NCBI RefSeq assembly: GCF_000007145.1
Contig: NC_003902.1
Location: forward strand, 1,657,436-1,689,435
DNA from: Xanthomonas campestris pv. campestris str. ATCC 33913
Lineage (GTDB): Bacteria > Pseudomonadota > Gammaproteobacteria > Xanthomonadales > Xanthomonadaceae
Direction of reading: 5' to 3'
DNA: 32,000 nucleotides
Numbering within the stretch: the stretch's first letter is position 1; every line of letters begins with the position of its first letter. Positions 9,951 through 32,000 of this stretch are shown here, piece by piece. The position numbers and the translations under genes are program-made. The notes below the pieces were generated by a model, which was not told the origin of the DNA, did not search any database, and was given only the letters and a program-made list of their open reading frames with translations.

Positions 9951-10024
9951 CGCGGGCGGCGCTTCACCGGGTGTGCGCGCCACGCTGCCTACAGTGGGGC
10001 GCTGGTTCCCACGGAGCGTTCCCC

Positions 10025-10579: not shown

Positions 10580-10682
10580 GCGCGCGGGCCGGGCCGGCAT
10601 GCCCGCAGGCTAGACGGGGGCAGGGCATCGCGGGCAGTGAGACCGCACCGGCGTAGGCTGTGGTGCACTGGCTATGCACCAG

Positions 10683-10691
10683 TTATCCACA
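10683..10691 (+). promoter_or_regulatory. consensus DnaA box (TTATCCACA) upstream of dnaB
   Basis: Exact 9/9 match to TTATCCACA, 77 nt upstream of the preferred dnaB start, embedded in short inverted repeats (GGTGCA...TGCACC; CTGTGG...CCACAG). A single box only. Confidence 0.35.
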
Positions 10692-10767
10692 GAGTTGTGC
10701 ATGGTCCTCGCCGCCGGTGATGACTATGCTTCCTGCCCCCGTCTCCCTCGCGTCAGGCTGTCCGTCC

Positions 10768-18868: not shown

Positions 18869-19049
18869 GCCTCGTCGATCACACCTGGCAAGCAGTCGCG
18901 CCTGCCCGGCGGCTGCGCAGCCGGTTCGACCGCTGCACTGATTCATCGCTGCATCGCCCGCCCGTGACTACCGGCCTTTTCATCAGGCCGGTTCAGGGCG
19001 GGGCGTGTTGCGCCGCCACCCGGCGGCAACCTCTTTCAGGACCACCCCA

Positions 19050-22000
19050 ATGGACTTTTCCCGTTTTTTCATCGACCGACCGATCTTCGCGGCGGTGCTG
19101 TCGATCATCATCTTCGCGGCTGGCCTGATCGCCATGCCGCTGCTGCCCATCAGCGAATACCCCGAAGTGGTGCCGCCGAGCGTGCAGGTGCGTGCGGTGT
19201 ATCCGGGCGCCAATCCCAAGGTCATCGCCGAGACCGTCGCCACGCCGCTTGAGGAAGCCATCAACGGCGTGGAAAACATGATGTACATGAAGTCGGTCGC
19301 CGGCTCCGATGGCGTGCTGGTGGTCACCGTGACCTTCAAGCCGGGCACCGATCCGGACCAGGCGCAGGTGCAGGTGCAGAACCGCGTCAGTCAGGCGCAG
19401 GCGCGTCTGCCCGAGGACGTGCGGCGCCAGGGTGTGACCACGCAGAAGCAGTCGCCGACGCTGACCATGGTCGTGCATCTGACCTCCCCCAAGGGCAAGT
19501 ACGACTCGCTGTACCTGAGCAACTACGCCACCTTGAAGGTCAAGGACGAGCTGTCGCGCCTGCCGGGCGTGGGCCAGATCCAGATCTTCGGTGCCGGCGA
19601 TTACGCCATGCGGATCTGGCTGGATCCGGACAAGGTCGCCGCGCGCGGGCTCACCGCCAGCGATGTAGTGGCCGCCATCCGCGAGCAGAACGTGCAGGTG
19701 TCCGCCGGCCAGCTCGGCGCCGAGCCGATGCCGAACAAGAGCGAGTTCCTGCTGTCGATCAATGCACAGGGCCGCCTGACCACCGAAGAAGAATTCGGCA
19801 ACATCGTGATCCGCAGCGGTACCAGCGGCGAGATCGTGCGCCTGTCGGATGTGGCGCGGCTGGAACTGGGTGCCGGCAAGTACACGCTGCGCTCGCAACT
19901 GGACAGCAAGAGCGCGGTGGGCATGGGTGTCTTCCAGTCCCCGGGCGCCAATGCGATCGAGTTGTCCGATGCGGTGCGCGCCAAGATGGCGGAGCTGGAA
20001 AAACAGTTCCCGCAGGACATGGCCTGGTCGGCGGCCTACGACCCCACCATCTTCGTGCGCGATTCCATCAAGGCGGTGGTGAGCACCTTGCTGGAGGCGG
20101 TGCTGCTGGTGGTGCTGGTGGTGATCCTGTTCCTGCAGACCTGGCGTGCGTCGATCATTCCGTTGCTGGCGGTGCCGGTGTCGGTGGTGGGCACCTTCGC
20201 AGCGCTGTATGTGCTTGGCTTTTCGATCAATACGCTGACCCTGTTCGGCCTGGTGCTGGCGATCGGCATCGTGGTCGACGATGCGATCGTGGTGGTGGAA
20301 AACGTCGAGCGCAACATCGAAGAAGGTTTGAGCCCGCTGGCTGCTGCGCATCAGGCGATGCGCGAAGTGTCCGGGCCCATCATCGCCATCGCGCTGGTGT
20401 TGTGCGCGGTGTTCGTGCCGATGGCGTTCCTGTCGGGCGTGACCGGCCAGTTCTACAAGCAGTTCGCGGTGACCATCGCCATCTCCACGGTGATCTCGGC
20501 GATCAACTCGCTGACCCTGTCGCCTGCACTGGCAGCCATGCTGCTCAAGGCCCATGACGCCCCGAAGGATGGTCCGACGCGGTTGATCGACCGGTTGTTC
20601 GGCTGGATTTTTCGTCCGTTCAACCGCTTCTTCAACACCAGCTCGCACAAGTATCAGGGTGCGGTTTCGCGCGCGCTGGGCAAGCGCGGTATGGTCTTCA
20701 TGGTGTATCTGTTGCTGTTGGTCGGCACCGGGGTGATGTTCAAACTGGTGCCGGGCGGCTTCATTCCGACCCAGGACAAGTTGTACCTGATCGCCGGTGC
20801 CAAGCTGCCCGAAGGCGCATCGCTGGAGCGCACCAGCGAGGTGATCAGCCAGATCAGCGATATTGCGCTGCAGACCGAGGGCGTTGCGCACGCGGTGGCG
20901 TTTCCTGGCCTCAATCCACTGCAGTTCACCAATACGCCCAACACCGGCACCCTGTTCCTGACCCTCAAGCCCTTCAGCGAACGCAGCCGGACCGCAGCGC
21001 AGATCAATGCCGAGATCAACGCGCGCATCAGCCAGATCGAGAAGGGCTTCGCCTTCGCCTTCATGCCGCCGCCGATTCTTGGCTTGGGTCAAGGCTCCGG
21101 CTATTCGCTGTACATCCAGGATCGTGCCGGGCTCGGTTACGGGCAGTTGCAGACTGCGGTAACGGCGATGTCCGGTGCGATCTCGCAGACGCCGGGCATG
21201 CAGTTCCCGATCGGCACCTATCAGGCCAACGTGCCGCAGCTCGATGCAAAGGTCGATCGCGACAAGGCCAAGGCGCAGGGTGTGCCGCTGACCAATGTGT
21301 TCGACACGCTGCAGACCTATCTGGGGTCTGCGTACATCAACGACTTCAATCGCTTCGGTCGTACCTATCAGGTGATCGCCCAGGCCGATGGACAGTTCCG
21401 CGACAGCGTCGAAGACATCGCCAACCTGCGCACCCGCAACGATCGCGGGCAGATGGTGCCGATCGGCAGCATGGTCACGCTGGGCCAGACCTACGGCCCG
21501 GATCCGGTGATCCGCTACAACGGCTACCCGGCCGCCGATCTGATCGGTGAAGCGGACACGCGCGTGCTGTCGTCCGCCCAGGCGATGCAGACGCTGGCCG
21601 GCATGGCGCCGAAGGTGTTGCCCAACGGCATGAACATCGAGTGGACCGATCTGAGTTATCAGCAATCCATCCAGGGCAATTCGGCGTTGATCGTGTTCCC
21701 GATGGCGGTGTTGCTGGCGTTCCTGGTGCTGGCCGCGTTGTACGAAAGCTGGACCTTGCCGCTGGCGGTGATCCTGATCGTGCCGATGACCTTGCTGTCT
21801 GCCTTGTTCGGCGTATGGCTCACCGGTGGCGACAACAACGTGTTCGTGCAGGTGGGACTGGTGGTGTTGATGGGCCTGGCGTGCAAGAACGCGATCCTGA
21901 TCGTGGAGTTTGCCCGCGAACTGGAGATGCACGGCAAGGGCATCGTCGAAGCCGCGCTGGAAGCCTGCCGCCTGCGTCTGCGCCCGATCGTGATGACCTC

Positions 22001-22220
22001 CATCGCCTTCATCGCCGGCACCGTGCCGCTGGTGTTCGGCCATGGCGCTGGCGCAGAAGTGCGCTCGGTCACCGGCATCACCGTGTTCGCCGGCATGTTG
22101 GGCGTGACCCTGTTCGGCCTGTTCCTGACGCCGGTGTTCTACGTGGCCCTGCGCAAGTGGGTGACCCGTGGCGAACCCGCCGCACCGGCCGCCGTGGCAC
22201 ATGATCCGGTCAAGGCCTGA
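19050..22220 (+). CDS. RND multidrug efflux permease (HAE1 family), MexF/SmeW-like
   Basis: MDFSRFFIDRPIFAAVLSIIIF...PISEYPEVVPPSVQVRAVYPGANPKVIAETVATPLEEAINGVENMMYM is near-colinear with MexF as recalled. 1056 aa with 12-TM topology. The track start at 19005 is a short over-extension. Confidence 0.95.
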   Translation: MDFSRFFIDRPIFAAVLSIIIFAAGLIAMPLLPISEYPEVVPPSVQVRAVYPGANPKVIAETVATPLEEAINGVENMMYMKSVAGSDGVLVVTVTFKPGTDPDQAQVQVQNRVSQAQARLPEDVRRQGVTTQKQSPTLTMVVHLTSPKGKYDSLYLSNYATLKVKDELSRLPGVGQIQIFGAGDYAMRIWLDPDKVAARGLTASDVVAAIREQNVQVSAGQLGAEPMPNKSEFLLSINAQGRLTTEEEFGNIVIRSGTSGEIVRLSDVARLELGAGKYTLRSQLDSKSAVGMGVFQSPGANAIELSDAVRAKMAELEKQFPQDMAWSAAYDPTIFVRDSIKAVVSTLLEAVLLVVLVVILFLQTWRASIIPLLAVPVSVVGTFAALYVLGFSINTLTLFGLVLAIGIVVDDAIVVVENVERNIEEGLSPLAAAHQAMREVSGPIIAIALVLCAVFVPMAFLSGVTGQFYKQFAVTIAISTVISAINSLTLSPALAAMLLKAHDAPKDGPTRLIDRLFGWIFRPFNRFFNTSSHKYQGAVSRALGKRGMVFMVYLLLLVGTGVMFKLVPGGFIPTQDKLYLIAGAKLPEGASLERTSEVISQISDIALQTEGVAHAVAFPGLNPLQFTNTPNTGTLFLTLKPFSERSRTAAQINAEINARISQIEKGFAFAFMPPPILGLGQGSGYSLYIQDRAGLGYGQLQTAVTAMSGAISQTPGMQFPIGTYQANVPQLDAKVDRDKAKAQGVPLTNVFDTLQTYLGSAYINDFNRFGRTYQVIAQADGQFRDSVEDIANLRTRNDRGQMVPIGSMVTLGQTYGPDPVIRYNGYPAADLIGEADTRVLSSAQAMQTLAGMAPKVLPNGMNIEWTDLSYQQSIQGNSALIVFPMAVLLAFLVLAALYESWTLPLAVILIVPMTLLSALFGVWLTGGDNNVFVQVGLVVLMGLACKNAILIVEFARELEMHGKGIVEAALEACRLRLRPIVMTSIAFIAGTVPLVFGHGAGAEVRSVTGITVFAGMLGVTLFGLFLTPVFYVALRKWVTRGEPAAPAAVAHDPVKA

Positions 22221-22253
22221 TTCCTCTTCCCCCATCTTTGAAGGACATTGCAC

Positions 22254-22985
22254 ATGAGCACCAACAAGATCGCACTGGTCACCGGCGGTACCCGCGGCAT
22301 CGGCCTGGAGACCGTCCGTCAACTGGCCCAGGCCGGCGTGCACACGCTGCTGGCTGGCCGCAAGCGCGATGACGCCGTCGCCGCTGCACTCAAGCTGCAG
22401 GCCGAAGGCCTGCCGGTGGAAGCCATCCAGCTGGACGTCAACGACGACATCAGCATCGCCGCGGCCGTTGGCACGGTGGAGCAGCGTCACGGCCATCTGG
22501 ACATCCTGATCAACAACGCCGGCATCATGATCGAGGACATGCAGCGCAAGCCGTCCGAGCAGAGCCTGGACACCTGGAAGCGCACCTTCGACACCAACCT
22601 GTTTGCGGTGGTCGGCGTGACCAAGGCGTTCCTGCCGCTGCTGCGTCGTTCGCTGGCCGGGCGCATCGTCAACGTCTCCAGCATCCTCGGCTCGTTGACC
22701 CTGCACACACAGCAGGGCTCGCCGATCTATGACTTCAAGATACCTGCCTACGACGCCTCCAAGAGCGCACTCAACAGCTGGACCGTGCACCTGGCCCATG
22801 AGCTGCGCGAGAGCGCGATCAAGGTCAACATGGTGCATCCGGGCTATGTCAAAACCGACATGAACGGTGGCGTCGGCGAGATCGACGTGGAGCAGGGCGC
22901 ACACAGCAGCGTGCAGATGGCGTTGATCGATGCGCACGGCCCCAATGGCAGCTTCACCTACCTGGGCGAGGTGCTGCCATGGTGA
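22254..22985 (+). CDS. classical short-chain dehydrogenase/reductase (carbonyl-reductase-like), SmeU2-like position
   Basis: AAGGA 8 nt upstream of the ATG at 22254. Motifs TGGTRGIG, NNAG, the Ser of NVSS, and YDASK (YxxxK). Confidence 0.9.
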   Translation: MSTNKIALVTGGTRGIGLETVRQLAQAGVHTLLAGRKRDDAVAAALKLQAEGLPVEAIQLDVNDDISIAAAVGTVEQRHGHLDILINNAGIMIEDMQRKPSEQSLDTWKRTFDTNLFAVVGVTKAFLPLLRRSLAGRIVNVSSILGSLTLHTQQGSPIYDFKIPAYDASKSALNSWTVHLAHELRESAIKVNMVHPGYVKTDMNGGVGEIDVEQGAHSSVQMALIDAHGPNGSFTYLGEVLPW

Positions 22986-24403
22986 GGACCTTGCTGGGCG
23001 CCGCGCTTGCCGCGGCGATCCTGAGTGGTTGCGCGGTCGGGCCGGATTACCGCCCCGAACCGCCGGCCGCGGTGACGCTGCAAGGCGCGCAGGATGCGGC
23101 CTATAGCGCCGAGTCGCCGGTGGGCAACTGGTGGTCGCAGTTCGATGACCCGGTGCTGGAACAACTGGTGCGCGATGCGTTGTTCGCCAACCACGATCTG
23201 CGCATTGCCGTCTCGCGCGTCAAGCAGGCGCGTGCGGTGTTCGTCGAACGCCGGTTGGACCAGGCGCCGCACATCACCGCACAAGGCAGCTTTGATCGCC
23301 GCGAACAACAGCAGGTGATCGCCGGCAATCAGCGTTTCCTCACCGAGCAGACCACGCTGGGTCTGGATGCGGCGTGGGAACTGGATCTGTTCGGCCGCCA
23401 GCGGCGTGCGTCGGAGGCGGCGCGTGCCGACCTGGAAGCCGAGCAGGCCGGCCTGCAGGACGTGCAGGTCACGGTGGCCGCGGAGGTGGCGCGCAACTAT
23501 TTCGAATTGCGCGGCACGCAAAAGCAGCTGGACGTCTCCAAGCGCACCCTGACCAACCTGCGCGACACCCAGAAGCTGACGCAGACGCGTTGGGACCTGG
23601 GCGCCGGCAGCGAGCTGGATGTGCAGAGCAGCCTGGCACGCTTGAAGGCCATCGAAGCCGACATTCCGTTGCTGGAAACTGCCGAAGCGCAGTACCGCCA
23701 TCGGATCGCCGTGTTGCTCGGTCAACAGCCGAATGCGCTGGATGCCACCCTGGTGGCGCGCACCGCACCGCCGTTCGCCCGCGCCTTGCCGCTCGGCGAT
23801 ACCGCCAGCTTGCTGCGGCAACGCCCGGACGTGCGCACCGCCGAACGGCGTCTGGCTGCGGCCACCGCACAGGTGGGCGTGGCCACGGCCGATCTGTTCC
23901 CGCGCATCAGCGTGAGCGGCTTTGTCGGCTTTCTGTCTGGCGATGCGGCCAGGTTGACCCAGGGCAACGCAAAGGCCTGGTCGATCACGCCGTCGATCAG
24001 CTGGGCCGCGTTCGACTTCGGCACCGTACGTGCACGCCTGCGTGCCAGCAAGGCGCAGGCCGAAGGCGCGTTGGCGCAGTACCAGCAGACCGTGCTGCTG
24101 GCACTGGAAGATACCGAAAATGCCTTGACCGGCTACGGGCGTCAGCAGGCGCGCCTGGCGATCGTGGTGGACCAGGCCAATGCGGCGCGGCGTGCCGAGC
24201 AGCTGGCGCAGATCCGCTACCGCGAGGGTTCGGAAGACTTCCTGACCCTACTGGATGCACAGCGCACCCAACTGGCAGCCGACGATGCATTGGCGCAGGC
24301 CGAAGCAGCGGTCAATGTCGGCGTGGTCGGCGTCTACAAGGCGCTGGGTGGCTGGAAGCAAGGTGAGGCACCGGCCGCGCCGGTGGCAGTGGCCGAGCGC
24401 TGA
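22979..24403 (+). CDS. RND efflux outer-membrane factor lipoprotein (NodT family), OprN/SmeX-like
   Basis: The ATG at 22979 overlaps the SDR stop by 7 nt (ATGGTGA). Lipobox ILSGC followed by AVGPDY. Two TolC-like repeats, with YKALGGGW-like C-terminus (YKALGGWKQG). Confidence 0.9.
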   Translation: MVRTLLGAALAAAILSGCAVGPDYRPEPPAAVTLQGAQDAAYSAESPVGNWWSQFDDPVLEQLVRDALFANHDLRIAVSRVKQARAVFVERRLDQAPHITAQGSFDRREQQQVIAGNQRFLTEQTTLGLDAAWELDLFGRQRRASEAARADLEAEQAGLQDVQVTVAAEVARNYFELRGTQKQLDVSKRTLTNLRDTQKLTQTRWDLGAGSELDVQSSLARLKAIEADIPLLETAEAQYRHRIAVLLGQQPNALDATLVARTAPPFARALPLGDTASLLRQRPDVRTAERRLAAATAQVGVATADLFPRISVSGFVGFLSGDAARLTQGNAKAWSITPSISWAAFDFGTVRARLRASKAQAEGALAQYQQTVLLALEDTENALTGYGRQQARLAIVVDQANAARRAEQLAQIRYREGSEDFLTLLDAQRTQLAADDALAQAEAAVNVGVVGVYKALGGWKQGEAPAAPVAVAER

Positions 24404-24410
24404 GATGGCA

Positions 24411-24488
24411 GGGCGGGGCGGCCGCGCGGCCGTCCCGCCCATGCATGCACGACGGTATCAATCGCTGATCGGCAATTGCCGATCAGCG
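24411..24488. terminator. two hairpins between convergent genes (probable bidirectional termination region)
   Basis: Hairpin 1: GGGCGGGGCGGCC / GGCCGTCCCGCCC (24411-24440, one mismatch). Hairpin 2: a perfect 26-nt palindrome CGCTGATCGGCAATTGCCGATCAGCG (24463-24488). No strong T-runs. Confidence 0.5.
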
Positions 24489-24497
24489 CTGGATGAC

Positions 24498-25568
24498 TCA
24501 GTCGGCGATGCGCACGCTGTCGCGGCCGCCGTTCTTGGCCAGATACAGCGCCGCATCCGCACGCGAAAACCAGTCTTGCCAGTGCGTTTCGCCATCGTGG
24601 CGGGCCGCGCCCAGCGACACGGTGATGCGTCCGCCCGGCCCACGTAATCCGTTGCGGATCACCTTGCGCAAGCGCTCGGTGGCCGCTTCCAGTTCCGCCA
24701 GCGAGCCGGCGCGCAGCAGCACTACGAATTCTTCGCCGCCGAAGCGGAACACCTGATAGGGCTCACGCACCTCGAACCGCAGGATCGTGGCCAGGTCAGC
24801 CAATGCCGCATCGCCGGCGGCATGCCCGTACAGATCGTTGACGTCCTTGAAGTGGTCCAGGTCCAGGATGATCAGGCTGTTGAGCCGATCCTGCGGCTGA
24901 CGTTGATCGATCTGATGGGTGAGCGCGCGCTCGAGCATGCGCCGGTTGGGCAGGCCGGTCAGCGCATCCAGCGAGGCCAGTTCTTCCAGATGCACGCGGT
25001 CGTCCTGCATGCGCACCGAGAACGCGTAGCCCACCGCCAGCGTCACCAAGGTGACCATCACGGTGGAGATGCCCTGGCCAGGGCTGACGATCAAGCCGGG
25101 CAGCAACAGCAAGGCCGCCAGCAACGGCAGGCTCAGCAACACCGCGCGCTGCGGGCCGCAGAGAAAATAATTGGTGGCCAGCACCGGGAACAACCAGGGC
25201 AGGGCGCCGTCGCCGCCGCTCCAGCAGCCGATCAGGCAGCCAGCGACATTGATGGAGGCCAGCCACACCCCGCCGCGTCCAGTGCGCTCGGCACTGCGCA
25301 TGCGCCAGCCACGCCACACCGCGACCAGGCCGAGTGCGGCAGTCAACGCACATGCCACCCCTTGGCCATGCATGGCCAGGTACACCGCGTACAGGCAGAG
25401 CAACAGCGCGGTGATCGGCCCGAGCATCTTGACGATGCCGAGGCGGAAATCCCGCCGCAAATGGAGGATCACGGGCGAAGTTCTGGAGGAGTCGGCATCA
25501 GTATCGGCCGACGCGTGCGAAAGTTGAGGGAAGGTGGCGCGCGCCGGCAGCGCATCGTGCGTGCGCAA
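24498..25568 (-). CDS. membrane-anchored GGDEF-domain diguanylate cyclase
   Basis: Several N-terminal TM helices, then LDALTGLPNRR, DLDHFKDVND.YGH..GD and the GGEEF motif (FRFGGEEFVVLL). The start is uncertain: TTG at 25568 is the longest, and the first ATG at 25427 is the alternative. Confidence 0.85.
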   Translation of the reverse strand: MRTHDALPARATFPQLSHASADTDADSSRTSPVILHLRRDFRLGIVKMLGPITALLLCLYAVYLAMHGQGVACALTAALGLVAVWRGWRMRSAERTGRGGVWLASINVAGCLIGCWSGGDGALPWLFPVLATNYFLCGPQRAVLLSLPLLAALLLLPGLIVSPGQGISTVMVTLVTLAVGYAFSVRMQDDRVHLEELASLDALTGLPNRRMLERALTHQIDQRQPQDRLNSLIILDLDHFKDVNDLYGHAAGDAALADLATILRFEVREPYQVFRFGGEEFVVLLRAGSLAELEAATERLRKVIRNGLRGPGGRITVSLGAARHDGETHWQDWFSRADAALYLAKNGGRDSVRIAD

Positions 25569-25721
25569 CGTTGGTCAGATGCCGCTACGGCGCACAACGC
25601 TGATCAGCACGTACCTCGGCGCGCCGCAGCCGATCAGATGCCGCATCCCACACGCGCTGTACGGTTTCGCAGATCCTTGACGGCATAGCCGCAACCTTGG
25701 GGCTTTGCCGTGGAGTCACCG

Positions 25722-25955
25722 ATGCCTAATCGCTCAGAGTTGGATGCGCACCTGGATGCGCTGCAGGACGCACTGCCGAACGTGGCGTCCGATGAAGACG
25801 CCGACTTCGATTATCTGGATTTCCAGGCCCGCGCCGAGGCCGTCCTGCACAGCGCCGCACCCGAAGACGCCGCGCATGTGCGTGGCCGCATCGACGACAT
25901 GCTGGCCAGCGCCGGGCTGATCCCGACCGACGACAACGGGCAGGCCTGTCGCTGA
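25722..25955 (+). CDS. small acidic hypothetical protein
   Basis: 77 aa from the ATG at 25722 (the track uses GTG at 25710). Third codon positions are G/C-rich throughout, and the protein is rich in Asp and Glu. No family was recognised. Confidence 0.45.
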   Translation: MPNRSELDAHLDALQDALPNVASDEDADFDYLDFQARAEAVLHSAAPEDAAHVRGRIDDMLASAGLIPTDDNGQACR

Positions 25956-25971
25956 CAGCACGGGCCTGGCG

Positions 25972-27669
25972 TCACACGCTGCCCGGCGTCACCGCGCTGA
26001 CCACCTGATTGCGCCCGGCCTGCTTGGCCCGATACAGCGCCTCGTCGGCCTTGCGCAGCAACTGCGCGGCGTTGCCTGCATGCCCGGGAAAGGTCGCGAC
26101 GCCGAACGAGGCGGTGATCTTGGGCAGTGACACGCCATCGGCCATTACCTGCAGGCCATCGATGCCGGCGCGTAATTTCTCCGCCATCGCGCTGGCGGTG
26201 GCCAGGTCGACCTCGGGCAGGATGATGGTCAGTTCCTCGCCGCCGTAGCGGCAGCAGATGTCTTCGCCGCGGGTCTGCGCCAGCAGCAGTTCGCCGATCG
26301 CAGCAAGCACGCGGTCGCCGCCACTGTGGCCATGCAGGTCGTTGAATTGCTTGAAATGGTCCACGTCCAGCATCAGCACCGACAGTGGCTGCACGCGTCG
26401 GGTGCAGCGCGACAGCTCGTGGTTGAGCGCTTCTTCCAGATAGCGGCGGTTGAACAGGCCGGTCAGCGGGTCACGGATGGATTGCTGGCGCAGCGTCTCG
26501 CGCAGGCGCAGGTTGTGCAGCGCCAACGACAATTGTTCGGCGGCCGCCTCGGCCACGGTCAGCGAGGCCAGTTCCTGCGCGTTGTCGCCGCGCAGCGCGA
26601 GCATGCCCAGCTGGGTGCCCTGTGCCGACAATGGAATGCAGACCGTGCTCGCATGCGGCGGAAGATTGACGCCGGCATGCTGGCAGACCATGCCTACGCT
26701 GGCGTCCTCCACCAGGTGAGTGCGGTCGCGTCGCAGTGCCCAGCACTCTTCGGGCGCGATGCTCCCGCGTTCGCCATCGGCCAGCGTTCCCCACGCCGCC
26801 ACCTGCTCGGCGCGATCGCGCGAGGCGCGCAGCAGATACACCGCGCCCGACACACCGGGCACCAGCGGGGCGATCGTGCGCGCCGTGATTTCCAGGGCTT
26901 CTTCCGCGTTGCGGCAGTTCTGCAGCAGGCCCGAATAGCGCGCCAGCGCTTCCAATCCTGCCGAGGTGCGTTCCAACGTGCTGAACGATTCGGCCAGCCG
27001 CGTGCTGCTCGTGCTGGCTTCTTCCTCGGCACGCACACGGCGGGCCAATTCGCGCGACAACAGCCGGTAGGCCAGCACCATGACCAATAGCCCGGACAAA
27101 ATGCCGATCGCCGTCATCCACAGCACCCAGCGCGCGCTGTCGTGGTTGGCCTGGGTGCGCGACACCAGCTGCCGGCGCTCCAGTTCGCCCATCAGTTGCA
27201 CCTGCCGGCGCAGCGCCGAAGAGGTCTGGAACACGCCCTTGGCGATGGAGGCGCGCGCGCCATCCAGCCCGGTGGCGCGATAGCTGTGCAATAGGTCGTT
27301 GATCTGCACCAGGCGCATGTCCACCAGCTTGTCCAGCGCGGCCACGTTGCGCAGTTGCAGGGGGTTGTCCTGCACCAACACCTCAAGCCGTGCAATGCGC
27401 CCGGGCAGGCGCCCGATGGCGTCGGCATGCACGCCCAGAAAGGCCTCGTTGTCGGTCAGCACGAAGCCACGCGCCGACGACTCCGCCGACAGCAGCCCGG
27501 CCTGGATCTCGTCGATGCTGGCAATGACTTCCTGCGTATGCGAGACCCACGCGGCCGCCGTCAGCGACTGCCGCGAGGTGATGTAGCCACCGACGCCGAT
27601 CAACACAAAGATCAGCCCGCCGAGCATCAAGGCCCCGGCGGCGTGGCGTTTTGCTTTTCTGGTCAACAC
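25972..27669 (-). CDS. CHASE3 - TM - GAF - GGDEF sensor diguanylate cyclase
   Basis: A periplasmic CHASE3-like region (WVSHTQEVIASIDEIQAGLLSAESSARGFVLT...) lies between two TM helices, followed by a GAF-like region and then DPLTGLFNRR, DVDHFKQFND.HGH..GD and RYGGEEL. The start is ambiguous: GTG at 27669 after GGGGA is preferred, TTG at 27711 is the longest, and there is also an ATG at 27627. Confidence 0.85.
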   Translation of the reverse strand: MLTRKAKRHAAGALMLGGLIFVLIGVGGYITSRQSLTAAAWVSHTQEVIASIDEIQAGLLSAESSARGFVLTDNEAFLGVHADAIGRLPGRIARLEVLVQDNPLQLRNVAALDKLVDMRLVQINDLLHSYRATGLDGARASIAKGVFQTSSALRRQVQLMGELERRQLVSRTQANHDSARWVLWMTAIGILSGLLVMVLAYRLLSRELARRVRAEEEASTSSTRLAESFSTLERTSAGLEALARYSGLLQNCRNAEEALEITARTIAPLVPGVSGAVYLLRASRDRAEQVAAWGTLADGERGSIAPEECWALRRDRTHLVEDASVGMVCQHAGVNLPPHASTVCIPLSAQGTQLGMLALRGDNAQELASLTVAEAAAEQLSLALHNLRLRETLRQQSIRDPLTGLFNRRYLEEALNHELSRCTRRVQPLSVLMLDVDHFKQFNDLHGHSGGDRVLAAIGELLLAQTRGEDICCRYGGEELTIILPEVDLATASAMAEKLRAGIDGLQVMADGVSLPKITASFGVATFPGHAGNAAQLLRKADEALYRAKQAGRNQVVSAVTPGSV

Positions 27670-27814
27670 CGTGTTCCCCAAACAACGATCGTCTGGTCGA
27701 GTCCGATGCAAGCGCCGTGCCTATGCTTCACTTCGCTTGCCCGGTGGCGGCACGGGGTCGCCTGCGCGCGGAGGCGGCGGTATCCTTGTGGCGAGTCATT
27801 GAGCCGAGCACGCG

Positions 27815-28057
27815 TTGGTCATTTTTCTTGGGCGTTACCAGTTGTCGTGCAATGCGCTGCCGCACCCTGCCCAAGGGTGGCGCGCGGACTGGCGCATCCA
27901 GCAGGTGGGTGCATCCAAGGCCGGCGATCTGGCTCGCGGCGAGCTCTCGCCCCTGTTTACCGACCACCGCAGCGCCATGTCCGCCGCCCGTGCCGCCGGC
28001 ATGGTGATCCTGGAAGCCATGCACGCCGACGCCCAGCGGCAGCTCGAATACGCCTGA
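27815..28057 (+). CDS. hypothetical protein or gene remnant
   Basis: The last ~66 codons have about 85% G/C at third positions by hand count, which is coding-like. The first ~14 codons do not. There is no in-frame ATG in the first ~50 codons (TTG or GTG candidates only) and no recognisable family. Confidence 0.3.
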   Translation: MVIFLGRYQLSCNALPHPAQGWRADWRIQQVGASKAGDLARGELSPLFTDHRSAMSAARAAGMVILEAMHADAQRQLEYA

Positions 28058-28358
28058 GCACTGGCATCGCTTCTCGCCCACGCCGCCTGAATTCCAAGGC
28101 CTTCGGCGTTCGATCTCGGGCCGACGCGATTAAAGGCCGGCTGGCGAGGCCGGGCTTGGGAGGTCATGTCGCCCGCCTTGACGGTGTCGGCGCACGGGCC
28201 AAACTGGCGGTGAAGATTCCCTTTTTGACTTGCTCTAGCAAGCTGCCTGCCGAGCGCATATTGCCTGCCGGCAGGCATGCGTGTTCTGCGAACACACTGG
28301 CACGCCACTTGCTGCTGTCTCTCTACGAGCGCTGGGGAGCGCGCCAAAGAGAGCAGGA

Positions 28359-28529
28359 ATGGAAGAGCACACCAAACAGGCCTTCGTCATGCTGCGACAG
28401 GAAGCCACCGAATTGCTGGCCCTGTTCGACCGCCTATGCTGCGATACCGCGCCAGCGACCCCGATGCAGGGCAATGAGGTCGAGCCGGTCCGCGCGCATC
28501 CGCCACAGACCGGTGACGTCACTCTCTGA
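28359..28529 (+). CDS. small hypothetical protein (56 aa)
   Basis: ATG at 28359 preceded by GAGCAGGA. MEEHTKQAFVMLRQEATELLALFDRL... Codon bias is moderately G/C3-rich. No family was recognised, and it may be non-coding. Confidence 0.3.
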   Translation: MEEHTKQAFVMLRQEATELLALFDRLCCDTAPATPMQGNEVEPVRAHPPQTGDVTL

Positions 28530-28595
28530 CGCGCTGCGTCCACTGTCGGGCTGGGCGAGACGCATCACGGTCATGTTGTGGTGATCTGCTGTGCC

Positions 28596-28622
28596 GCCAC
28601 TGCCACTGCCACTGCCACTGCC
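28596..28622. repeat. hexanucleotide microsatellite (GCCACT)x4 plus a partial copy
   Basis: Four perfect copies plus GCC, counted by hand. They generate the artefactual QWQWQWQW ORF on the minus strand. Confidence 0.9.
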
Positions 28623-28785
28623 CGTGCCGGCGCCGGCGCTTCGCGCTACCGCCCGCTAACGAGGCGGCACTGTAAACACTCGTGAGCAAGCAGGGCGGCG
28701 CTGCACAAAGCCCAGGTACCGGGACCTTCTTGCTGACCGGCGTGACCTGCACGGCAGCACTCTCCAAACGCCCAACACCGCACAT

Positions 28786-28824
28786 GAAAAAGGCCAGTCG
28801 TCTCTCTCGAGAACGCCTGGCCTT
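28786..28824 (-). terminator. Rho-independent terminator on the minus strand (orphan terminator of the displaced RNA-gene 3' end)
   Basis: The minus strand reads AAGGCCAGGCGTTCTCGAGAGAGACGACTGGCCTTTTTCA. The outer stem AAGGCCAG/CTGGCCTT has additional inner pairing and is followed by a T-run. It lies 25 nt downstream (minus sense) of the ...CCACCTCCACCA fragment. Confidence 0.6.
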
Positions 28825-28849
28825 AGTCGGTCGTCTTAGGACCGTTGTT

Positions 28850-28866
28850 TGGTGGAGGTGGGGTCT
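28850..28866 (-). other. 3'-terminal fragment of a tmRNA (ssrA) or tRNA-Ala-type gene: probable island att repeat
   Basis: The minus strand reads AGACCCCACCTCCACCA: acceptor strand CACCTCC, discriminator A, then CCA. This pairs with 5'-GGGGGTG including a G3:U70 pair, the alanine identity element used by tmRNA. No T-loop or remaining gene body lies upstream, so it is a fragment only. Confidence 0.55.
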
Positions 28867-29301
28867 ACCAAAAAATAACGATAAAATACTGATATTAAAG
28901 ATAATTTAATTTTCTTCTGTAGGAATGCCCCCAAATATGCCCCTGGAAAAATATAACGATGAATCGACATTTGGCTGGCTCACGCTGGTCTAAACGCTCT
29001 GAGTTGCGCAATTGGCGCCTCGCAATCCTGATCTCGCTTCCATCCAGGATGTCCGAGCGCACGACACAGGAGGATGGGAGGTTCAGGAGTCTAGCCATCT
29101 AGCCTTGTGGTCAGACATACTTCCCCAACGCTTGGGGAAGCTGCGGGATTGATCGTAGCTGGGCGTTGATAAGGGCCTAAAAGTGAAAGGACTCGTCATT
29201 GACGAACCGTGGATCTCATTGATCCTGAGTGGCCAGAAGACCTGGGAGATGCGCTCCCGCGCAACGTCCATTCGTGGTCGCATCGCGTTAATCAAAAAGG
29301 G

Positions 29302-29310
29302 ATCCGGAAC
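29302..29310. repeat. target-site duplication, left copy (ATCCGGAAC)
   Basis: Identical 9-mer directly abutting both IS ends (29302-29310 and 30661-30669). Confidence 0.85.
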
Positions 29311-30660
29311 CTGAGGTTTCCCCACATTTCCTCCTGGCAAATCAATCACTTGCGACGTAATTGCCTGGAAGAAAGTGCGCGCATGGCGCAATCTTCAAGG
29401 TGACTAAGCCAGAGAAGGTTGACGACCATGCGCGCCAGCGAAGTATTGCAGAAGTGCCTGCCCAACTCACTGTCCGGGATGCATGCGTTGCGCGAACGCG
29501 CGTTGCTGCATGCGGTCGAGGCGTTGTTGCACGGACGCAGGCTGACACTGATGGACATCGCACGTTCGTGGCCGAGCGCACTGCGGGTGCGCGCGCCGCT
29601 CAAGGCAGTTGATCGCCTGTTGAGTAATCGCAATTTGCAGGTCGAGCGATCAGTGATCGACCACGAGATGGCGCACTGGCTGCTGCGCGGCGCGCAGCCG
29701 GTAATCGTCATCGACTGGAGCGATCTGAAGCCAGACAAATCGTGGTGTCTGCTGCGCGCAGCGGTGCCGGTGGGCGGCCGCACGCTTACCTTGCTGGACA
29801 TGGTAGTGCCAGGAAAGCAGCAGGGATCGCCTGGTGCAGAAAGACGCTTCTTGCAACAACTGAGGGCACTGGTTCCGGACGATGTTCGCCCGATCCTGGT
29901 CACTGACGCCGGCTTCCGGACACCGTGGTTCCGCGCTGTATCGGCCATGGGCTGGTGTTGGGTTGGGCGACTGCGCGGGCGCACGCAAGTCAAGCCGCAG
30001 GACGTGCGGGATGAAGCAGATCAGTGGATCGACAGCCGGAAACTGCATGTGTTGGCGTCCAATCGTGCATGCGAGTTACCGCCGATGCAGGCCAATCGCA
30101 GCGATCCACTCGATTGCAGGTTGGTGATTTACGCCAAGGCACGGCAAGGGCGCAAACAGTGCAATCGCCGCTCACCCGCCAAAGTCTCGCGTGCGTCATC
30201 GAGTCTGAAGGCCGCAGCGCGCGAGCGCGAGCCTTGGCTCATCGTTGCATCCCCGCAGCTGCAGGCGCCCAGCGCAAAGCAGTTGGTCAATGTGTACGCA
30301 CGACGGATGCAGATCGAGCTTGCATTTCGCGATCTGAAATCACATCGCTACGGCCAGGCGCTGGAAGACAGTTTGACCCGACGCGGCGAGCGACTGCAGA
30401 TCCTGCTGCTGATCAATACGTTGGCTGCATTCGCCAGCTGGTTGGCGGGGCTGGGATGCGAAGCGACCGGTATCGCCCAGTGGCTGTCTCCTCGCAACAG
30501 CACACGCAAGCTTTACTCCACGCTACGCATCGGCCGAGAAGCGCTGGTCAGGCAGTGGCCGATGGAACCCGTCTCACGGTGGATAGGGCGCTTGCGCGCA
30601 CTGCCTGCGGCAGTGCGCGAGCAGATGACGCTTACGGTGTAAAACGTGGGGATACCTTAG
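29311..30660 (+). mobile_element. IS4-family, IS10-like insertion sequence (1350 bp), apparently intact
   Basis: Terminal inverted repeats CTGAGGTTTCCCCACATTT (left) and CTAAGGTATCCCCACGTTT (right, reverse complement) match at 16 of 19 positions and resemble the IS10 ends (CTGAGAGATCCCC...). A single 404-aa transposase ORF fills the element, which is flanked by a 9-bp TSD as for IS10. Confidence 0.9.
29428..30642 (+). CDS. IS4-family (IS10-like) DDE transposase
   Basis: ATG at 29428 after GAGAAGG. Colinear with the IS10 transposase as recalled: LTL..I.R..P......LK..DRLL.N..L..ER, VIVIDWSDL, VTDAGFRTPWF, GW.W.GR.RG and QLVN.Y..RMQIE..FRDLKS..YG (YREK region). Confidence 0.9.
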   Translation: MRASEVLQKCLPNSLSGMHALRERALLHAVEALLHGRRLTLMDIARSWPSALRVRAPLKAVDRLLSNRNLQVERSVIDHEMAHWLLRGAQPVIVIDWSDLKPDKSWCLLRAAVPVGGRTLTLLDMVVPGKQQGSPGAERRFLQQLRALVPDDVRPILVTDAGFRTPWFRAVSAMGWCWVGRLRGRTQVKPQDVRDEADQWIDSRKLHVLASNRACELPPMQANRSDPLDCRLVIYAKARQGRKQCNRRSPAKVSRASSSLKAAAREREPWLIVASPQLQAPSAKQLVNVYARRMQIELAFRDLKSHRYGQALEDSLTRRGERLQILLLINTLAAFASWLAGLGCEATGIAQWLSPRNSTRKLYSTLRIGREALVRQWPMEPVSRWIGRLRALPAAVREQMTLTV

Positions 30661-30669
30661 ATCCGGAAC
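30661..30669. repeat. target-site duplication, right copy (ATCCGGAAC)
   Basis: See the left copy. The sequences are identical. Confidence 0.85.
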
Positions 30670-31277
30670 CATCGTCGGCGTTGCTGATTTGGTTGACTGC
30701 ATCGGCCCCTTCGACGCCACTGCCTGGCGCGCACACGCCGACAAACACTGTATTCCCATAGAGCGCGAAGAGCTGGCCATGCGCTGGAACGTCGCTTGGG
30801 CGCTTAGTAGGGCGACTCCACTGGCGCGATCGGTCAGCTACGACCATCCTTCCGGTGCTGTTACGTGGGTCAATCTCGACGATGAGGTTGTGGCCCAACT
30901 CCAGCTTGGTGCCAGCCATCTCAAGATTCCTCAGAAGCTGCCGTTAACCCTAGGAACGAACCTCCAGCCTAAGAATCTGCCGGAGCAGCGATTCACACTT
31001 GAAGATGCGGGCGCGGTGCCTATTGGCGTATTGATACCGGTCGCCAGTGATGGCACGTGGTTCTCGCCCGATTTGAAGAGAGGGCGCGGGTACACCATCT
31101 GCGCCAAGGGTGAGGAGATTGTGGTGGAGAGCTATCTAGAAGCTCTCTCGCAACTTCGCCTGATTCCTAAGCCGCGCTGGCGGAGACCAAATGCCGGTGG
31201 CAACTGGGGAATCATGACTGGGGTGAAGTGGGAAGACGCCAGTAAGTTGACAAGCTAATACAGGGGATTTAGAAGAA

Positions 31278-32000
31278 ATGAACGTGCTTTGGATCGCGGC
31301 GACTGGCGATTGGCTACATGCTCTGATTGCGTCGATCATCGCAGTCCTTTTTCTCTGTTTTCTCTTCTTTGTCTTGTTCCGGGCGAGCGCGCTTCTGGTG
31401 TCATTGAAGCGACTCGGTAATGCTGTTCGGCTGCTGACAGGGAAATCGCCCCCCCTCGTCAAGCGGGAACTCAGCAAGCTCTTTGCCAACAGTCGCCTCC
31501 AGCCGAACTGGGCCGAGTACGAGGACACGTTGCATGAGCAGACCGCCAATCAAGGTATTGATCGAGAAATCGTAGCCGTTCGTGCAACCGTCCCCGCAGA
31601 ATCGTTCTTCAATGCGGAGCTGGTGGTTGATAGCACGCTGCACACAGAGTTCTTCAAGCATCTTCCTGGGATTTTTACCGGGCTCGGAATCATCGCGACC
31701 TTCAGTGGGCTCATTGCAGGCTTACAAAGCTTCGACGTCAAGGCGGTAGAGCCGGACGCGCTGAAAGCAAGTCTCGGCGGTCTTTTCGGCCACGTTGGCA
31801 GTGCGTTTCTTCTTTCTGCGGTTGCTATTGGTCTCGCGATGATCTGCACGATCGTCGAAAAAATCCTCTATGCAGCAAACGTGCATGCGATCACGTCGAT
31901 CGCGCTGGCGCTGGATGGTCTTTTCAAGTCTGGTGTCGGCGAGGAATACCTTTCCAAATTGGTGAGGTCTTCTGAAGATGGTGCTGTACAGACAAAGCAG
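31278..32000 (+). CDS. MotA/TolQ/ExbB-type proton-channel protein, ZorA-like; 5' part only (runs off the right edge)
   Basis: ATG at 31278, 241 codons with no stop to the window end (hand-translated, absent from the track). TM1 is LHALIASIIAVLFLCFLFFVLF, followed by a ~90-aa soluble insert. Then FFKHLPGIFTGLGIIATFSGLIAGL and GGLFGHVGSAFLLSAVAIGLAMICTIVEKIL (MotA/ExbB channel signature), then LFKSGVGEEYLSKLVRSSEDG and onward. Confidence 0.7.
   Translation, partial: MNVLWIAATGDWLHALIASIIAVLFLCFLFFVLFRASALLVSLKRLGNAVRLLTGKSPPLVKRELSKLFANSRLQPNWAEYEDTLHEQTANQGIDREIVAVRATVPAESFFNAELVVDSTLHTEFFKHLPGIFTGLGIIATFSGLIAGLQSFDVKAVEPDALKASLGGLFGHVGSAFLLSAVAIGLAMICTIVEKILYAANVHAITSIALALDGLFKSGVGEEYLSKLVRSSEDGAVQTKQ

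What the first reader, a model, noticed from the sequence alone, without database searches (positions are those of the whole stretch)
31278..32000. Edge-truncated MotA/ExbB-type gene with ZorA-like features: probable entry point of a Zorya-like or novel ion-driven defence module
**Seen in the sequence**
- There is an open frame of 241 codons that is still open at the window end.
- It encodes one N-terminal TM helix and then a ~90-residue soluble segment (..NWAEYEDTLHEQ..VRATVPAESFFNAELVVDSTLHTEFFKHLPGIFTGLGIIATFSGLIAGL).
- A second hydrophobic hairpin helix follows, then ..LFKSGVGEEYLSKLV.. with no stop.
- The gene sits in low-GC DNA (43-52% G+C in the two 60-nt lines I counted), inside an island, next to an IS, and 19 nt after an ASCH-domain gene.

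**Established knowledge**
- P-G-x-x-T-G-x-G-(I/L)-x-x-T-F-x-G-L is the plug/channel signature of MotA/TolQ/ExbB stators.
- ZorA of Zorya systems is such a protein, with a long C-terminal tail.

**Inference**
- From memory, the motif strings and the continuation past TM3 resemble ZorA more than housekeeping ExbB/TolQ.
- The partner (ZorB-like) and effector genes that would define the system type lie beyond 32000, so the system could be a known Zorya type or an undescribed variant coupled to the ASCH gene.
Basis: partly seen in the sequence, partly recalled or inferred. Interest (0 to 1): 0.85.

Follow-up and report, generated by a model that had tools for sequence, protein, structure and literature searches.

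The report
Start of an ordinary Zorya gene
The open frame at the window's edge is the first 241 codons of zorA, the membrane-motor gene of a standard type I Zorya anti-phage system (zorABCD) in Xanthomonas campestris, so it is ordinary; the broken small gene just upstream belongs to a family that sits beside Zorya systems remarkably often and is worth a follow-up.

Summary
Window 31278-32000 (+) holds 241 open codons. They match a PADLOC ZorA1 model end to end (E 4.7e-138) and the solved E. coli ZorA (E 5e-48), and all mutationally defined motor residues are conserved.

The window is 99.96% identical to Xanthomonas campestris pv. campestris 8004. In that genome the same gene runs to 629 codons and is followed by zorB, zorC and zorD. 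This is a canonical four-gene type I Zorya, not ExbB/TolQ/MotA and not a new ion-driven module. Novelty of the finding itself is nil.

- The ASCH gene upstream is split by a 1348-bp IS4-family element with an 11-bp target duplication, so it is a pseudogene here.
- G+C of the frame is 54%, against 66.5% for the backbone.

One lead came out of the work. The ~240-aa family of that gene (ASCH domain plus a C-terminal domain with no Pfam or PDB match) lies co-directional and adjacent to type I Zorya in:
- 17 of 20 informative metagenome loci;
- 4 of 4 sampled homologues;
- 3 related genomes.

It co-diverges with ZorB. No paper in the searchable library mentions this link.

The parts
31278..32000 (+). 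zorA, codons 1-241 of 629. It covers TM1, the membrane-proximal cytoplasmic domain, TM2, TM3 and the first ~20 residues of the tail, and is cut by the window edge.
   Evidence: PADLOC ZorA1 PDLC00599 E 4.7e-138 over model positions 1-241 of 631. E. coli ZorA 8QYD E 4.8e-48. Identical to the first 241 aa of the 629-aa ZorA of Xcc 8004, L016 7701-9590.
31314..31379 (+). ZorA TM1, about residues 13-34.
   Evidence: Kyte-Doolittle hydropathy. Aligns with the N-terminal TM region of EcZorA.
31659..31727 (+). ZorA TM2, about residues 128-150. Contains P130, I138 and T141, equivalent to EcZorA P136, I144 and T147.
   Evidence: Alignment to 8QYD/8QYY. The roles of these residues are described in PMC11946911.
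31785..31865 (+). ZorA TM3, about residues 170-196. Contains S180, equivalent to EcZorA S184 of the ion-selectivity filter.
30660..31258 (+). 3' part of the interrupted ASCH-family gene: the rest of the ASCH domain, a linker, and the C-terminal 'WRRPNxxGNWG' domain. The stop codon ends at 31258, 19 nt before zorA.
   Evidence: tblastn with intact orthologues from L003 and L004: residues 41-241 map to 30662-31249 at 53% identity, E 7e-63.
29183..29311 (+). 5' part of the interrupted ASCH-family gene: GTG start and 43 codons, including the ASCH motif G-x-K-x-x-E-x-R.
   Evidence: tblastn: residues 1-43 map to 29183-29311 at 81% identity. The motif columns are invariant in the family alignment.
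29312..30659 (+). IS4-family insertion sequence, 1348 bp. Transposase ORF at 29419-30642. Imperfect terminal inverted repeats TGAGGTTTCCCCAC... and TAAGGTATCCCCAC....
   Evidence: NCBIfam transpos_IS4_2 at 358 bits (cut-off 152) and Pfam DDE_Tnp_1. Boundaries and inverted repeats. The same insertion is present in Xcc 8004.
29301..29311 (.). Left copy of the 11-bp target-site duplication GATCCGGAACC.
30660..30670 (.). Right copy of the 11-bp target-site duplication GATCCGGAACC.
28600..32000 (.). Left end of a lower-G+C island (about 54-61% against 66.5% for the backbone) that carries the ASCH gene and zorABCD. The left limit is approximate.
   Evidence: Composition profile and segment G+C values. 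zorA to zorD in L016 is 55.2% G+C.

Best explanation
The frame is the 5' 38% of zorA, the first gene of a canonical type I Zorya anti-phage operon (zorA-zorB-zorC-zorD). The operon sits on a lower-G+C island of Xanthomonas campestris pv. campestris.

By homology with the solved E. coli system, the mechanism is as follows. These steps are inferred, not shown for this organism.
- Five ZorA subunits surround two ZorB subunits in the inner membrane.
- ZorB anchors the complex to peptidoglycan.
- Proton flow through ZorB Asp26 and the ZorA Thr/Ser filter drives rotation of ZorA around ZorB.
- On phage attack, the signal passes down the long coiled-coil ZorA tail. The tail recruits and activates ZorC (a DNA-binding EH-signature protein) and ZorD (an SNF2 helicase-nuclease), which degrade the invading DNA.

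The window holds only the motor half of ZorA. The tail and zorBCD lie beyond base 32000.

The gene immediately upstream belongs to an ASCH-domain family that usually accompanies such operons. Here it is inactivated by an IS4-family insertion.
For: Shown for the window fragment:
- PADLOC ZorA1 E 4.7e-138 across model positions 1-241 of 631. All 18 hits are ZorA models.
- All six NCBIfam hits are ZorA families.
- phmmer to EcZorA 8QYD gives E 4.8e-48.
- Conserved residues, window = E. coli: P130 = P136, I138 = I144, T141 = T147, S180 = S184, E80 = E86, D83 = E89, D213 = D217, P159 = P163, D160 = E164. Their roles are described in PMC11946911.

Shown for the continuation:
- Xcc 8004 (L016) is 99.96% identical to window 23578-32000, and its ZorA N-terminus equals the window's 241 aa.
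- Its genes are ZorA 629 aa, ZorB 238 aa (MotB_plug, OmpA), ZorC 539 aa (EH_Signature) and ZorD 1065 aa (SNF2-rel_dom, ResIII, Helicase_C).
- Its ZorB matches EcZorB at E 1e-67 and keeps D26, Y151, N152, L155 and R159.
- In Pseudoxanthomonas spadix (L002) the full-length ZorA is 583/629 (93%) identical to the Xcc 8004 one (95% over the first 241 aa), and all four proteins match PADLOC type I models end to end: ZorA1 1041 bits, ZorB1 303, ZorC1 549, ZorD1 1224.
- A second near-identical contig (L001) shows the same gene order.

The mechanism is taken from Hu et al. 2025, PMC11946911.
Against: - Nothing beyond codon 241 is in the window itself. The continuation is read from a near-identical genome, not from this assembly.
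- Most NCBIfam equivalog cut-offs, which are tuned to the E. coli-type system, are not reached by the L002 orthologues: ZorA1 297 against 750, ZorB1 288 against 400, ZorC 203 against 490, ZorD 909 against 1500. Only the subfamily model antiphage_ZorA_3 passes, 280 against 250. This is a diverged type I subfamily.
- Pfam gives no hit for the fragment.
- Expression and anti-phage activity in Xanthomonas are untested. The IS insertion 0.6 kb upstream could affect transcription of the operon.
Confidence: 0.95

Rival explanations
1. This is a type I Zorya variant in which the upstream ASCH-family protein is a functional fifth component. The protein would bind nucleic acid, sense modified bases or remove DNA modifications, and would widen or direct ZorC/ZorD action. 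The first reader called this an 'undescribed variant coupled to the ASCH gene'.
For: Adjacency:
- Family members lie co-directional and adjacent to type I Zorya in 4 of 4 sampled homologues: Rhodanobacter, Xanthomonas, Marinobacter and a metagenome.
- The same holds in 17 of 20 informative metagenome loci and in L002-L004.
- The gene is found either just before zorA or just after zorD.

Co-divergence:
- ASCH and ZorB pairwise identities correlate, Spearman 0.70 over 105 pairs, down to 23% ZorB identity.

Related architectures:
- A second ASCH subfamily follows zorD in a different Zorya I subfamily (L065, L090) and sits inside Hma systems.
- The N-domain is a confident ASCH/PUA-like fold: TTHA0113 at E 1e-22, and the TRIP4 ASCH-dsDNA complexes.
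- The C-domain is also found fused to UDG-superfamily and RNase_T domains.
- PUA-like domains are the usual modification sensors of type IV restriction (PMC12191111).
- An ASCH-like hydrolase, BapA, widens a glycosylase defence (bioRxiv 10.64898/2026.02.25.707755).
Against: - In this window, and in Xcc 8004, the gene is split by an IS. In P. spadix it is truncated by another IS. It is therefore dispensable for keeping the operon.
- The E. coli system studied by Hu et al. is described as working with four components.
- 9 of 12 ZorA loci from genomes lack the gene.
- The same family also sits next to type I R-M (L028, L030), Druantia III (L031) and a helicase cluster on plasmid pMAQU02. It may be an autonomous defence-island gene.
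- Adjacency and co-divergence show linkage, not function.
Confidence: 0.35
2. The operon is present but silenced or decaying in this strain. The IS4-family insertion in the first gene of the transcription unit would cut zorABCD off from its promoter.
For: - The IS lies 0.6 kb upstream of zorA, inside the co-directional, tightly spaced upstream gene (19-nt gap), which suggests one transcription unit.
- No sigma-70-like promoter was found between 28700 and 31400.
Against: - All four zor ORFs are intact in Xcc 8004.
- The IS transposase is co-directional with zorA, so read-through or an outward promoter is possible.
- The consensus promoter scan is weak evidence for a high-G+C organism.
Confidence: 0.15
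3. The gene is a housekeeping MotA/ExbB/TolQ-type stator gene for TonB, Tol-Pal or flagellar function.
For: It shares the general fold class and the P-G-x-x-T-G-x-G motif of TM2.
Against: - No Pfam MotA_ExbB hit even at E <= 1.
- All profile hits are ZorA models.
- The protein has a ~400-residue tail and is followed by ZorB, ZorC and ZorD, not ExbD/TonB or TolR/TolA.
Confidence: 0.01

Closest known systems
E. coli type I Zorya (EcZorI; ZorA5B2 structure 8QYD; Hu et al. 2025, PMC11946911)
   Same: - Same four-gene order.
- ZorA motor region aligns over residues 20-240 (E 4.8e-48), with P136, I144, T147, S184, E86 and D217 equivalents identical and E89 and E164 replaced by Asp.
- ZorB aligns over 220 residues (E 1e-67), with D26 and the peptidoglycan-binding residues identical.
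- ZorC carries the EH signature and ZorD the SNF2 helicase domains.
   Different: - ZorA is 629 aa, not 729, so the tail is about 100 residues shorter.
- Scores fall below NCBIfam's E. coli-tuned equivalog cut-offs.
- The host is a high-G+C plant pathogen.
- A (broken) ASCH-family gene precedes zorA.
PADLOC type I Zorya subfamily models: ZorA1 PDLC00599, ZorB1 PDLC00611, ZorC1 PDLC00616, ZorD1 PDLC00632
   Same: End-to-end matches for the orthologues. ZorA 1-628 matches model positions 1-630 of 631 at 1041 bits. The window fragment matches model positions 1-241 at 460 bits.
   Different: Nothing of note. This is the subfamily to which the gene belongs.
Shewanella sp. ANA-3 ZorAB (8VVN; Mariano et al. 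2025, PMC11890865)
   Same: Same family. The window fragment hits chain 8vvn_C (MotA/TolQ/ExbB domain protein, 696 aa) at E 1.2e-11.
   Different: A much more distant subfamily. That paper reports type III, not type I, as the Zorya type more frequent in Xanthomonas.
TTHA0113 of Thermus thermophilus (1WK2/2DP9) and other ASCH/PUA-like proteins (TRIP4 ASCH-dsDNA, ZmASCH). This comparison is for the upstream gene.
   Same: - The N-terminal ~115 residues match TTHA0113 at E 1.4e-22 by profile and at Foldseek E 1.6e-7.
- The GxKxxExR motif is conserved.
   Different: - The Zorya-linked family carries an extra C-terminal ~75-residue domain with no Pfam hit and no PDB fold match (best E 0.5).
- It is absent from PADLOC-DB 2.0.

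Membership tests
Type I Zorya (ZorABCD) | ZorA: a MotA/ExbB-like subunit with three TM helices and a membrane-proximal cytoplasmic domain that matches ZorA profiles. | tested here: met
   PADLOC ZorA1 E 4.7e-138. NCBIfam ZorA families only. EcZorA 8QYD E 4.8e-48. Three hydrophobic segments.
Type I Zorya (ZorABCD) | ZorA ion-pathway and motor residues: the Thr147/Ser184 filter, Pro136, Ile144 and the Ca2+-site acidic residues. | tested here: met
   T141, S180, P130, I138, E80, D83 and D213 align with them. Their roles are described in PMC11946911.
Type I Zorya (ZorABCD) | A long C-terminal helical tail on ZorA. | tested here: met
   The tail is not in the window. The identical gene in Xcc 8004 is 629 aa. 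The 93%-identical L002 protein matches the 631-position ZorA1 model over its whole length.
Type I Zorya (ZorABCD) | ZorB partner with the essential TM aspartate and an OmpA-like peptidoglycan-binding domain. | tested here: met
   L016 9595-10311 matches EcZorB at E 1e-67, with D26, Y151, N152, L155 and R159 conserved. PADLOC ZorB1 for L001 and L002. This lies outside the window.
Type I Zorya (ZorABCD) | ZorC (EH signature) and ZorD (SNF2 helicase with nuclease) as the type-I-specific effectors. | tested here: met
   PADLOC ZorC1 at 549-593 bits and ZorD1 at 1224 bits. Pfam EH_Signature and SNF2-rel_dom/Helicase_C in L016. This lies outside the window.
Type I Zorya (ZorABCD) | NCBIfam equivalog cut-offs for ZorA1, ZorB1, ZorC and ZorD. 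| tested here: not met
   For L002: 297 against 750, 288 against 400, 203 against 490, and 909 against 1500. Only the subfamily model antiphage_ZorA_3 passes, 280 against 250. This shows divergence from the E. coli-type subfamily, not absence of the family.
Type I Zorya (ZorABCD) | Protection against phage that depends on proton-motive force. | not testable with these tools
   Needs phage challenge of Xcc or of a heterologous host.
Zorya types II and III | ZorE (type II) or ZorF/ZorG (type III) following ZorAB, with best hits to ZorA2 or ZorA3 models. | tested here: not met
   The best ZorA2 hit has E 6e-10, against 4.7e-138 for ZorA1. The downstream genes are ZorC and ZorD.
Housekeeping ExbB/TolQ/MotA stators | A Pfam MotA_ExbB match, a protein of ~230-300 aa, and an ExbD/TolR/MotB partner with TonB/TolA or flagellar genes nearby. 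| tested here: not met
   No Pfam hit at E <= 1. The protein is 629 aa. The neighbours are ZorB, ZorC and ZorD.
ASCH domain proteins (PF04266), for the upstream gene | ASCH beta-barrel fold with the GxKxxExR motif. | tested here: met
   Intact orthologues pass Pfam's gathering score, 26.2 and 24.2 against 21.2. Profile hit to TTHA0113 at E 1.4e-22. Foldseek hits to ASCH structures. The motif is invariant.
ASCH domain proteins (PF04266), for the upstream gene | An intact coding sequence in this window. | tested here: not met
   The gene is split at codon 43 by the 1348-bp IS, with an 11-bp target duplication. The 189-aa remnant gives no ASCH hit.

The most novel reading that the evidence does not exclude
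The ~240-aa protein with an ASCH domain and a 'WRRPNxxGNWG' domain, encoded next to zorA (and broken by an IS in this window), is an undescribed accessory component of many type I Zorya systems and occasionally of other helicase-nuclease defences. It would bind nucleic acid, or read or remove base modifications on it, and so help ZorC/ZorD deal with modified phage genomes. Its C-terminal domain would be a new fold that tethers DNA-processing enzymes (ASCH, UDG-superfamily, exonuclease).
Probability: 0.35. Interest if true: 0.6.

Novelty: already known. Interest (0 to 1): 0.25.

Why it matters
The ORF itself adds nothing new. It is one more copy of a defence system that standard tools (PADLOC, NCBIfam) recognise, in a genome published in 2005. 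Its value is as an annotation: X. campestris pv. campestris 8004 carries a complete type I Zorya on a low-G+C island. That is relevant to anyone using phages against this crop pathogen.

The comparative by-product could matter more. How Zorya picks out phage DNA is still open, and a gene with a PUA-like (ASCH) nucleic-acid-binding domain is linked to type I Zorya across deep divergence. If it is a working partner, it gives a handle on target recognition and defines a fifth Zorya gene. If not, it is probably a small stand-alone defence-island gene of unknown function with a new C-terminal fold.

Tried and rejected
- Pfam on the 241-aa fragment gave no hit, not even MotA_ExbB. Pfam's newer ZorA-like_t1 family (PF28082) appears only in precomputed tables.
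- The search for homologous proteins with the fragment returned only proteins of 414 aa or less, at 58% identity or less. The one exception was an internal-start fragment, P0095. The search missed the full-length orthologues, which search for related loci then found.
- L001, a Logan contig, shows zorA broken into several ORFs. All its differences from Xcc 8004 are 1-2-nt deletions in homopolymer runs plus one substitution. I treat these as assembly errors, not as a pseudogene.
- tRNA scan of the window found none, so no tRNA marks the island's left end.
- The promoter scan of 28700-31400 found nothing. The terminator-like hits lie inside coding sequence and were ignored.
- The repeat search alone did not reveal the IS ends. 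They came from comparison with intact orthologues.
- Fold search of the C-terminal domain model (pLDDT 92) against the PDB gave no match better than E 0.5. Pfam found nothing.
- A profile of the ~325-aa proteins that share this domain found no PDB sequence relative.
- PADLOC, NCBIfam and Pfam (beyond ASCH) do not know the ASCH-family protein.
- Literature searches for Zorya with ASCH, Zorya with Xanthomonas, and ASCH domain with phage defense found no paper linking the two.
- I considered and rejected type II or III Zorya and ExbB/TolQ/MotA (see the membership table).
Full report
**1. The observation**

Window 31278-32000 (+) starts with ATG and stays open for 241 codons to the last base.

Hydropathy gives three hydrophobic stretches, at about residues 13-34, 128-150 and 170-196. 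That is one N-terminal helix, a ~90-residue soluble segment, and a pair of helices.

The upstream gene's stop codon ends at 31258, 19 nt before the ATG.

G+C is 54.1% for the frame, and 47-62% in single 60-nt lines. Bases 1-28000 are 66.5%. The gene therefore lies in relatively low-G+C DNA, which begins near 28600.

**2. What the frame encodes**

- Against PADLOC-DB the fragment hits only ZorA models. The best is ZorA1 PDLC00599, E 4.7e-138, covering model positions 1-241 of 631.
- NCBIfam gives only ZorA families.
- Pfam gives nothing, not even MotA_ExbB.
- Against PDB sequences the fragment matches E. coli ZorA (8QYD and truncations) at E about 5e-48 over residues 20-240.

Hu et al. (PMC11946911) describe the functional residues. 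The alignment places them as follows.

| Window ZorA | E. coli ZorA | Role |
|---|---|---|
| P130 | P136 | Kink in MPCD helix H3; P136A raised defence against some phages |
| I138 | I144 | Near ZorB Asp26; a bulkier side chain abolishes defence |
| T141, S180 | T147, S184 | Ion-selectivity filter |
| E80, D83, D213 | E86, E89, D217 | Ca2+ site |
| P159, D160 | P163, E164 | Periplasmic interface |

**3. What lies beyond the edge**

- A protein-based scan of species-representative genomes found Pseudoxanthomonas spadix (L002, 95% identity over the fragment), a Stenotrophomonas MAG (L003, 74%) and Coralloluteibacterium stylophorae (L004, 61%).
- In L002 the gene is 629 codons and is followed by ORFs of 249, 543 and 1065 codons. 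These match PADLOC ZorB1, ZorC1 and ZorD1 end to end. The ZorA matches its model over 1-628 at 1041 bits.
- A look-up of a homologue of the upstream gene returned Xanthomonas campestris pv. campestris 8004 (CP000050.1, L016). L016 is 99.96% identical to window 23578-32000, and its ZorA begins with exactly the window's 241 residues.
- In L016 the genes are zorA 629 aa, zorB 238 aa (MotB_plug, OmpA), zorC 539 aa (EH_Signature) and zorD 1065 aa (SNF2-rel_dom, ResIII, Helicase_C).
- Its ZorB matches E. coli ZorB at E 1e-67 and keeps Asp26 and the peptidoglycan-binding Tyr151, Asn152, Leu155 and Arg159.
- A Logan contig (L001) with the same sequence shows the same order. Its apparent zorA frameshifts are homopolymer deletions.

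The window therefore comes from X. campestris pv. campestris or a near-identical strain. The frame is the start of a complete, canonical type I Zorya operon.

**4. How it most likely works**

By homology with the E. coli system (PMC11946911):
- The complex is a ZorA5B2 proton-driven rotary motor anchored to peptidoglycan.
- It is activated on phage invasion.
- It signals through the coiled-coil ZorA tail to recruit ZorC (DNA binding) and ZorD (nuclease/helicase), which degrade phage DNA.

What is shown here is conservation of the gene set and of the mutationally defined residues. Activity in Xanthomonas is inferred.

The tail is about 100 residues shorter than in E. coli (629 aa against 729). 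Most scores fall below NCBIfam's equivalog cut-offs. This is a diverged subfamily of type I, the one modelled by PADLOC PDLC00599, 00611, 00616 and 00632.

**5. The upstream gene and the IS**

Intact orthologues in L003 (249 aa) and L004 (238 aa) pass Pfam's ASCH threshold.

In the window the gene is in two pieces:
- Codons 1-43 lie at 29183-29311. They include the ASCH motif GxKxxExR.
- The rest lies at 30660-31258.

Between the pieces is a 1348-bp element (29312-30659). It has an IS4-family transposase, imperfect terminal inverted repeats and an 11-bp target duplication, GATCCGGAACC.

The same insertion is in Xcc 8004. The two sequences differ by 1-nt indels exactly at the two junctions.

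In P. spadix the gene is truncated by a different IS. The 'ASCH gene 19 nt upstream' is real but is a pseudogene here.

**6. Is the ASCH gene coupled to Zorya?**

*Size and shape of the family.* The family has 833 relatives at E <= 1e-5 in the clustered protein database. It has two conserved domains joined by a variable linker.

*Gene contexts.* Four homologues at 44-55% identity were chosen across the list.
- Rhodanobacter fulvus, Xcc and a metagenome have the order ASCH-zorABCD.
- Marinobacter segnicrescens has zorABCD-ASCH.

*Metagenome scan.* The scan returned 24 loci with the two-domain protein.
- 17 carry Zorya genes on the same strand, next to it: 14 have the ASCH gene directly upstream of zorA and 3 have it directly downstream of zorD.
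- 2 lie after a type I restriction-modification system, and 1 lies after Druantia III.
- 4 are too short to tell.

*Other contexts.* On Marinobacter plasmid pMAQU02 the gene follows a helicase cluster.

*Co-divergence.* Across 15 loci, ASCH and ZorB pairwise identities correlate (Spearman 0.70, 105 non-independent pairs), with ZorB identity down to 23%.

*Reverse test.* Only the three closest of 12 ZorA loci from genomes carry the gene.

*A second subfamily.* A second ASCH subfamily, with a different C-terminal domain, follows zorD in another Zorya I subfamily (L065, L090). It also sits between HmaA and HmaB of Hma systems.

*Databases and literature.* PADLOC-DB 2.0 has no model for these proteins. 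No paper in the searchable library links ASCH with Zorya.

**7. What the ASCH-family protein might do**

- The N-domain matches T. thermophilus TTHA0113 (E 1.4e-22).
- By fold, it matches the ASCH domains of TRIP4 (solved with dsDNA) and of Zymomonas (model pLDDT 87).
- The C-domain folds confidently (pLDDT 92) but has no PDB fold match and no Pfam family.
- The C-domain occurs in 589 clusters at 50% identity, almost always at the C-terminus.
- Its partners are ASCH, an unassigned ~240-residue N-region (36 clusters), and singly a UDG-superfamily domain and an RNase_T exonuclease.
- PUA-like domains are the usual modification readers of type IV restriction (PMC12191111).
- An ASCH-like hydrolase, BapA, strips glucose from phage DNA to widen a glycosylase defence (bioRxiv 10.64898/2026.02.25.707755).

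One reasonable guess is a nucleic-acid or modified-base binding or processing accessory to helicase-nuclease defences. The alternative is an autonomous small defence-island gene that simply travels with Zorya. The data show linkage, not function, and the gene is dispensable enough to be IS-broken in two of the four Lysobacterales (Xanthomonadales) genomes seen.

**8. Verdict**

The system is a known type, type I.
- The finding is already known in kind and is recognisable by standard tools. Its interest is low.
- The ASCH-Zorya linkage is the one thing worth taking further. I give it about one chance in three of reflecting a real functional partnership.

Noticed in passing
window 29183-29311 and 30660-31258; also L003 3302-4051, L004 9269-9985, L014 7001-7732, L018 7001-7738, L019 7001-7750, and L021-L044: A ~240-aa family (ASCH domain plus a C-terminal 'WRRPNxxGNWG' domain) lies co-directional and adjacent to type I Zorya in most loci examined. 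It sits before zorA or after zorD, and it co-diverges with ZorB. It is not in PADLOC-DB 2.0 and does not appear with Zorya in any paper of the searchable library.
   Followed up: yes
L065 9953-10768, L090 9980-10777, L084 9953-10936, L067 9968-10933, L080 10001-10564: A second ASCH subfamily with a different C-terminal domain (...GNIxxxHIYLRxFFDRFPxDxVGGSN...TDLDGSKKFFRxRGWIGxFF...) sits directly after zorD of a different Zorya I subfamily. It also sits between the HmaA helicase and the HmaB methylase of Hma systems.
   Followed up: partly
proteins P0304, P0275, P0231 and alignment A4: The 'WRRPNxxGNWG' C-terminal domain has no Pfam or PDB match, although the model is confident (pLDDT 92). It is also fused to a UDG-superfamily domain (P0304), to a protein with an RNase_T exonuclease (Pfam) and a GIY-YIG-like N-terminal motif (by eye only) (P0275), and to an unassigned ~240-residue N-region in 36 clusters. 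It looks like a module attached to DNA-processing enzymes.
   Followed up: partly
L028 and L030 (ASCH at 10001-10729 and 10001-10693), L031 (9322-9975), L101 (8941-9681): The two-domain ASCH gene is not exclusive to Zorya. It follows a type I R-M operon (hsdR-M-S) in L028 (PADLOC; L030 has the same ORF layout but was not scanned), Druantia III DruH plus a 2088-aa ORF taken to be DruE (not scanned) in L031, and an IS-disrupted helicase cluster on Marinobacter nauticus plasmid pMAQU02.
   Followed up: partly
window 29310 and 30660 against L016 5733 and 7082: The window and X. campestris 8004 differ over 8.4 kb by one substitution (28307) and by single-base indels exactly at the two IS junctions. 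In 8004 the right-hand indel puts an IS-internal start in frame with the ASCH 3' part (annotated as a 226-aa protein). In the window it does not.
   Followed up: partly
proteins P0050 (Limnobacter, 341 aa), P0061 (Sphingobium, 319 aa) and about 20 others of 330-341 aa: Many relatives of the ZorA motor region are only about 320-340 aa, and some sit on megabase contigs. They may be naturally short-tailed ZorA-like proteins rather than fragments. Tail truncation abolishes defence in E. coli, so these may do something else.
   Followed up: no
window 19005-27711: The backbone upstream of the island holds an RND efflux pump (19005-22220), a short-chain dehydrogenase (22248-22985), an OprN-type outer-membrane factor (22979-24403) and two GGDEF proteins on the minus strand (24498-25568; 25972-27711, with CHASE3 and GAF). 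The order is the same as in Xcc 8004.
   Followed up: no
window 28596-28622 and 28860-28960: A short GCCACT tandem and a ~100-nt A+T-rich stretch lie just where G+C drops. They may mark the left border of the island. No tRNA gene is present in the window.
   Followed up: no
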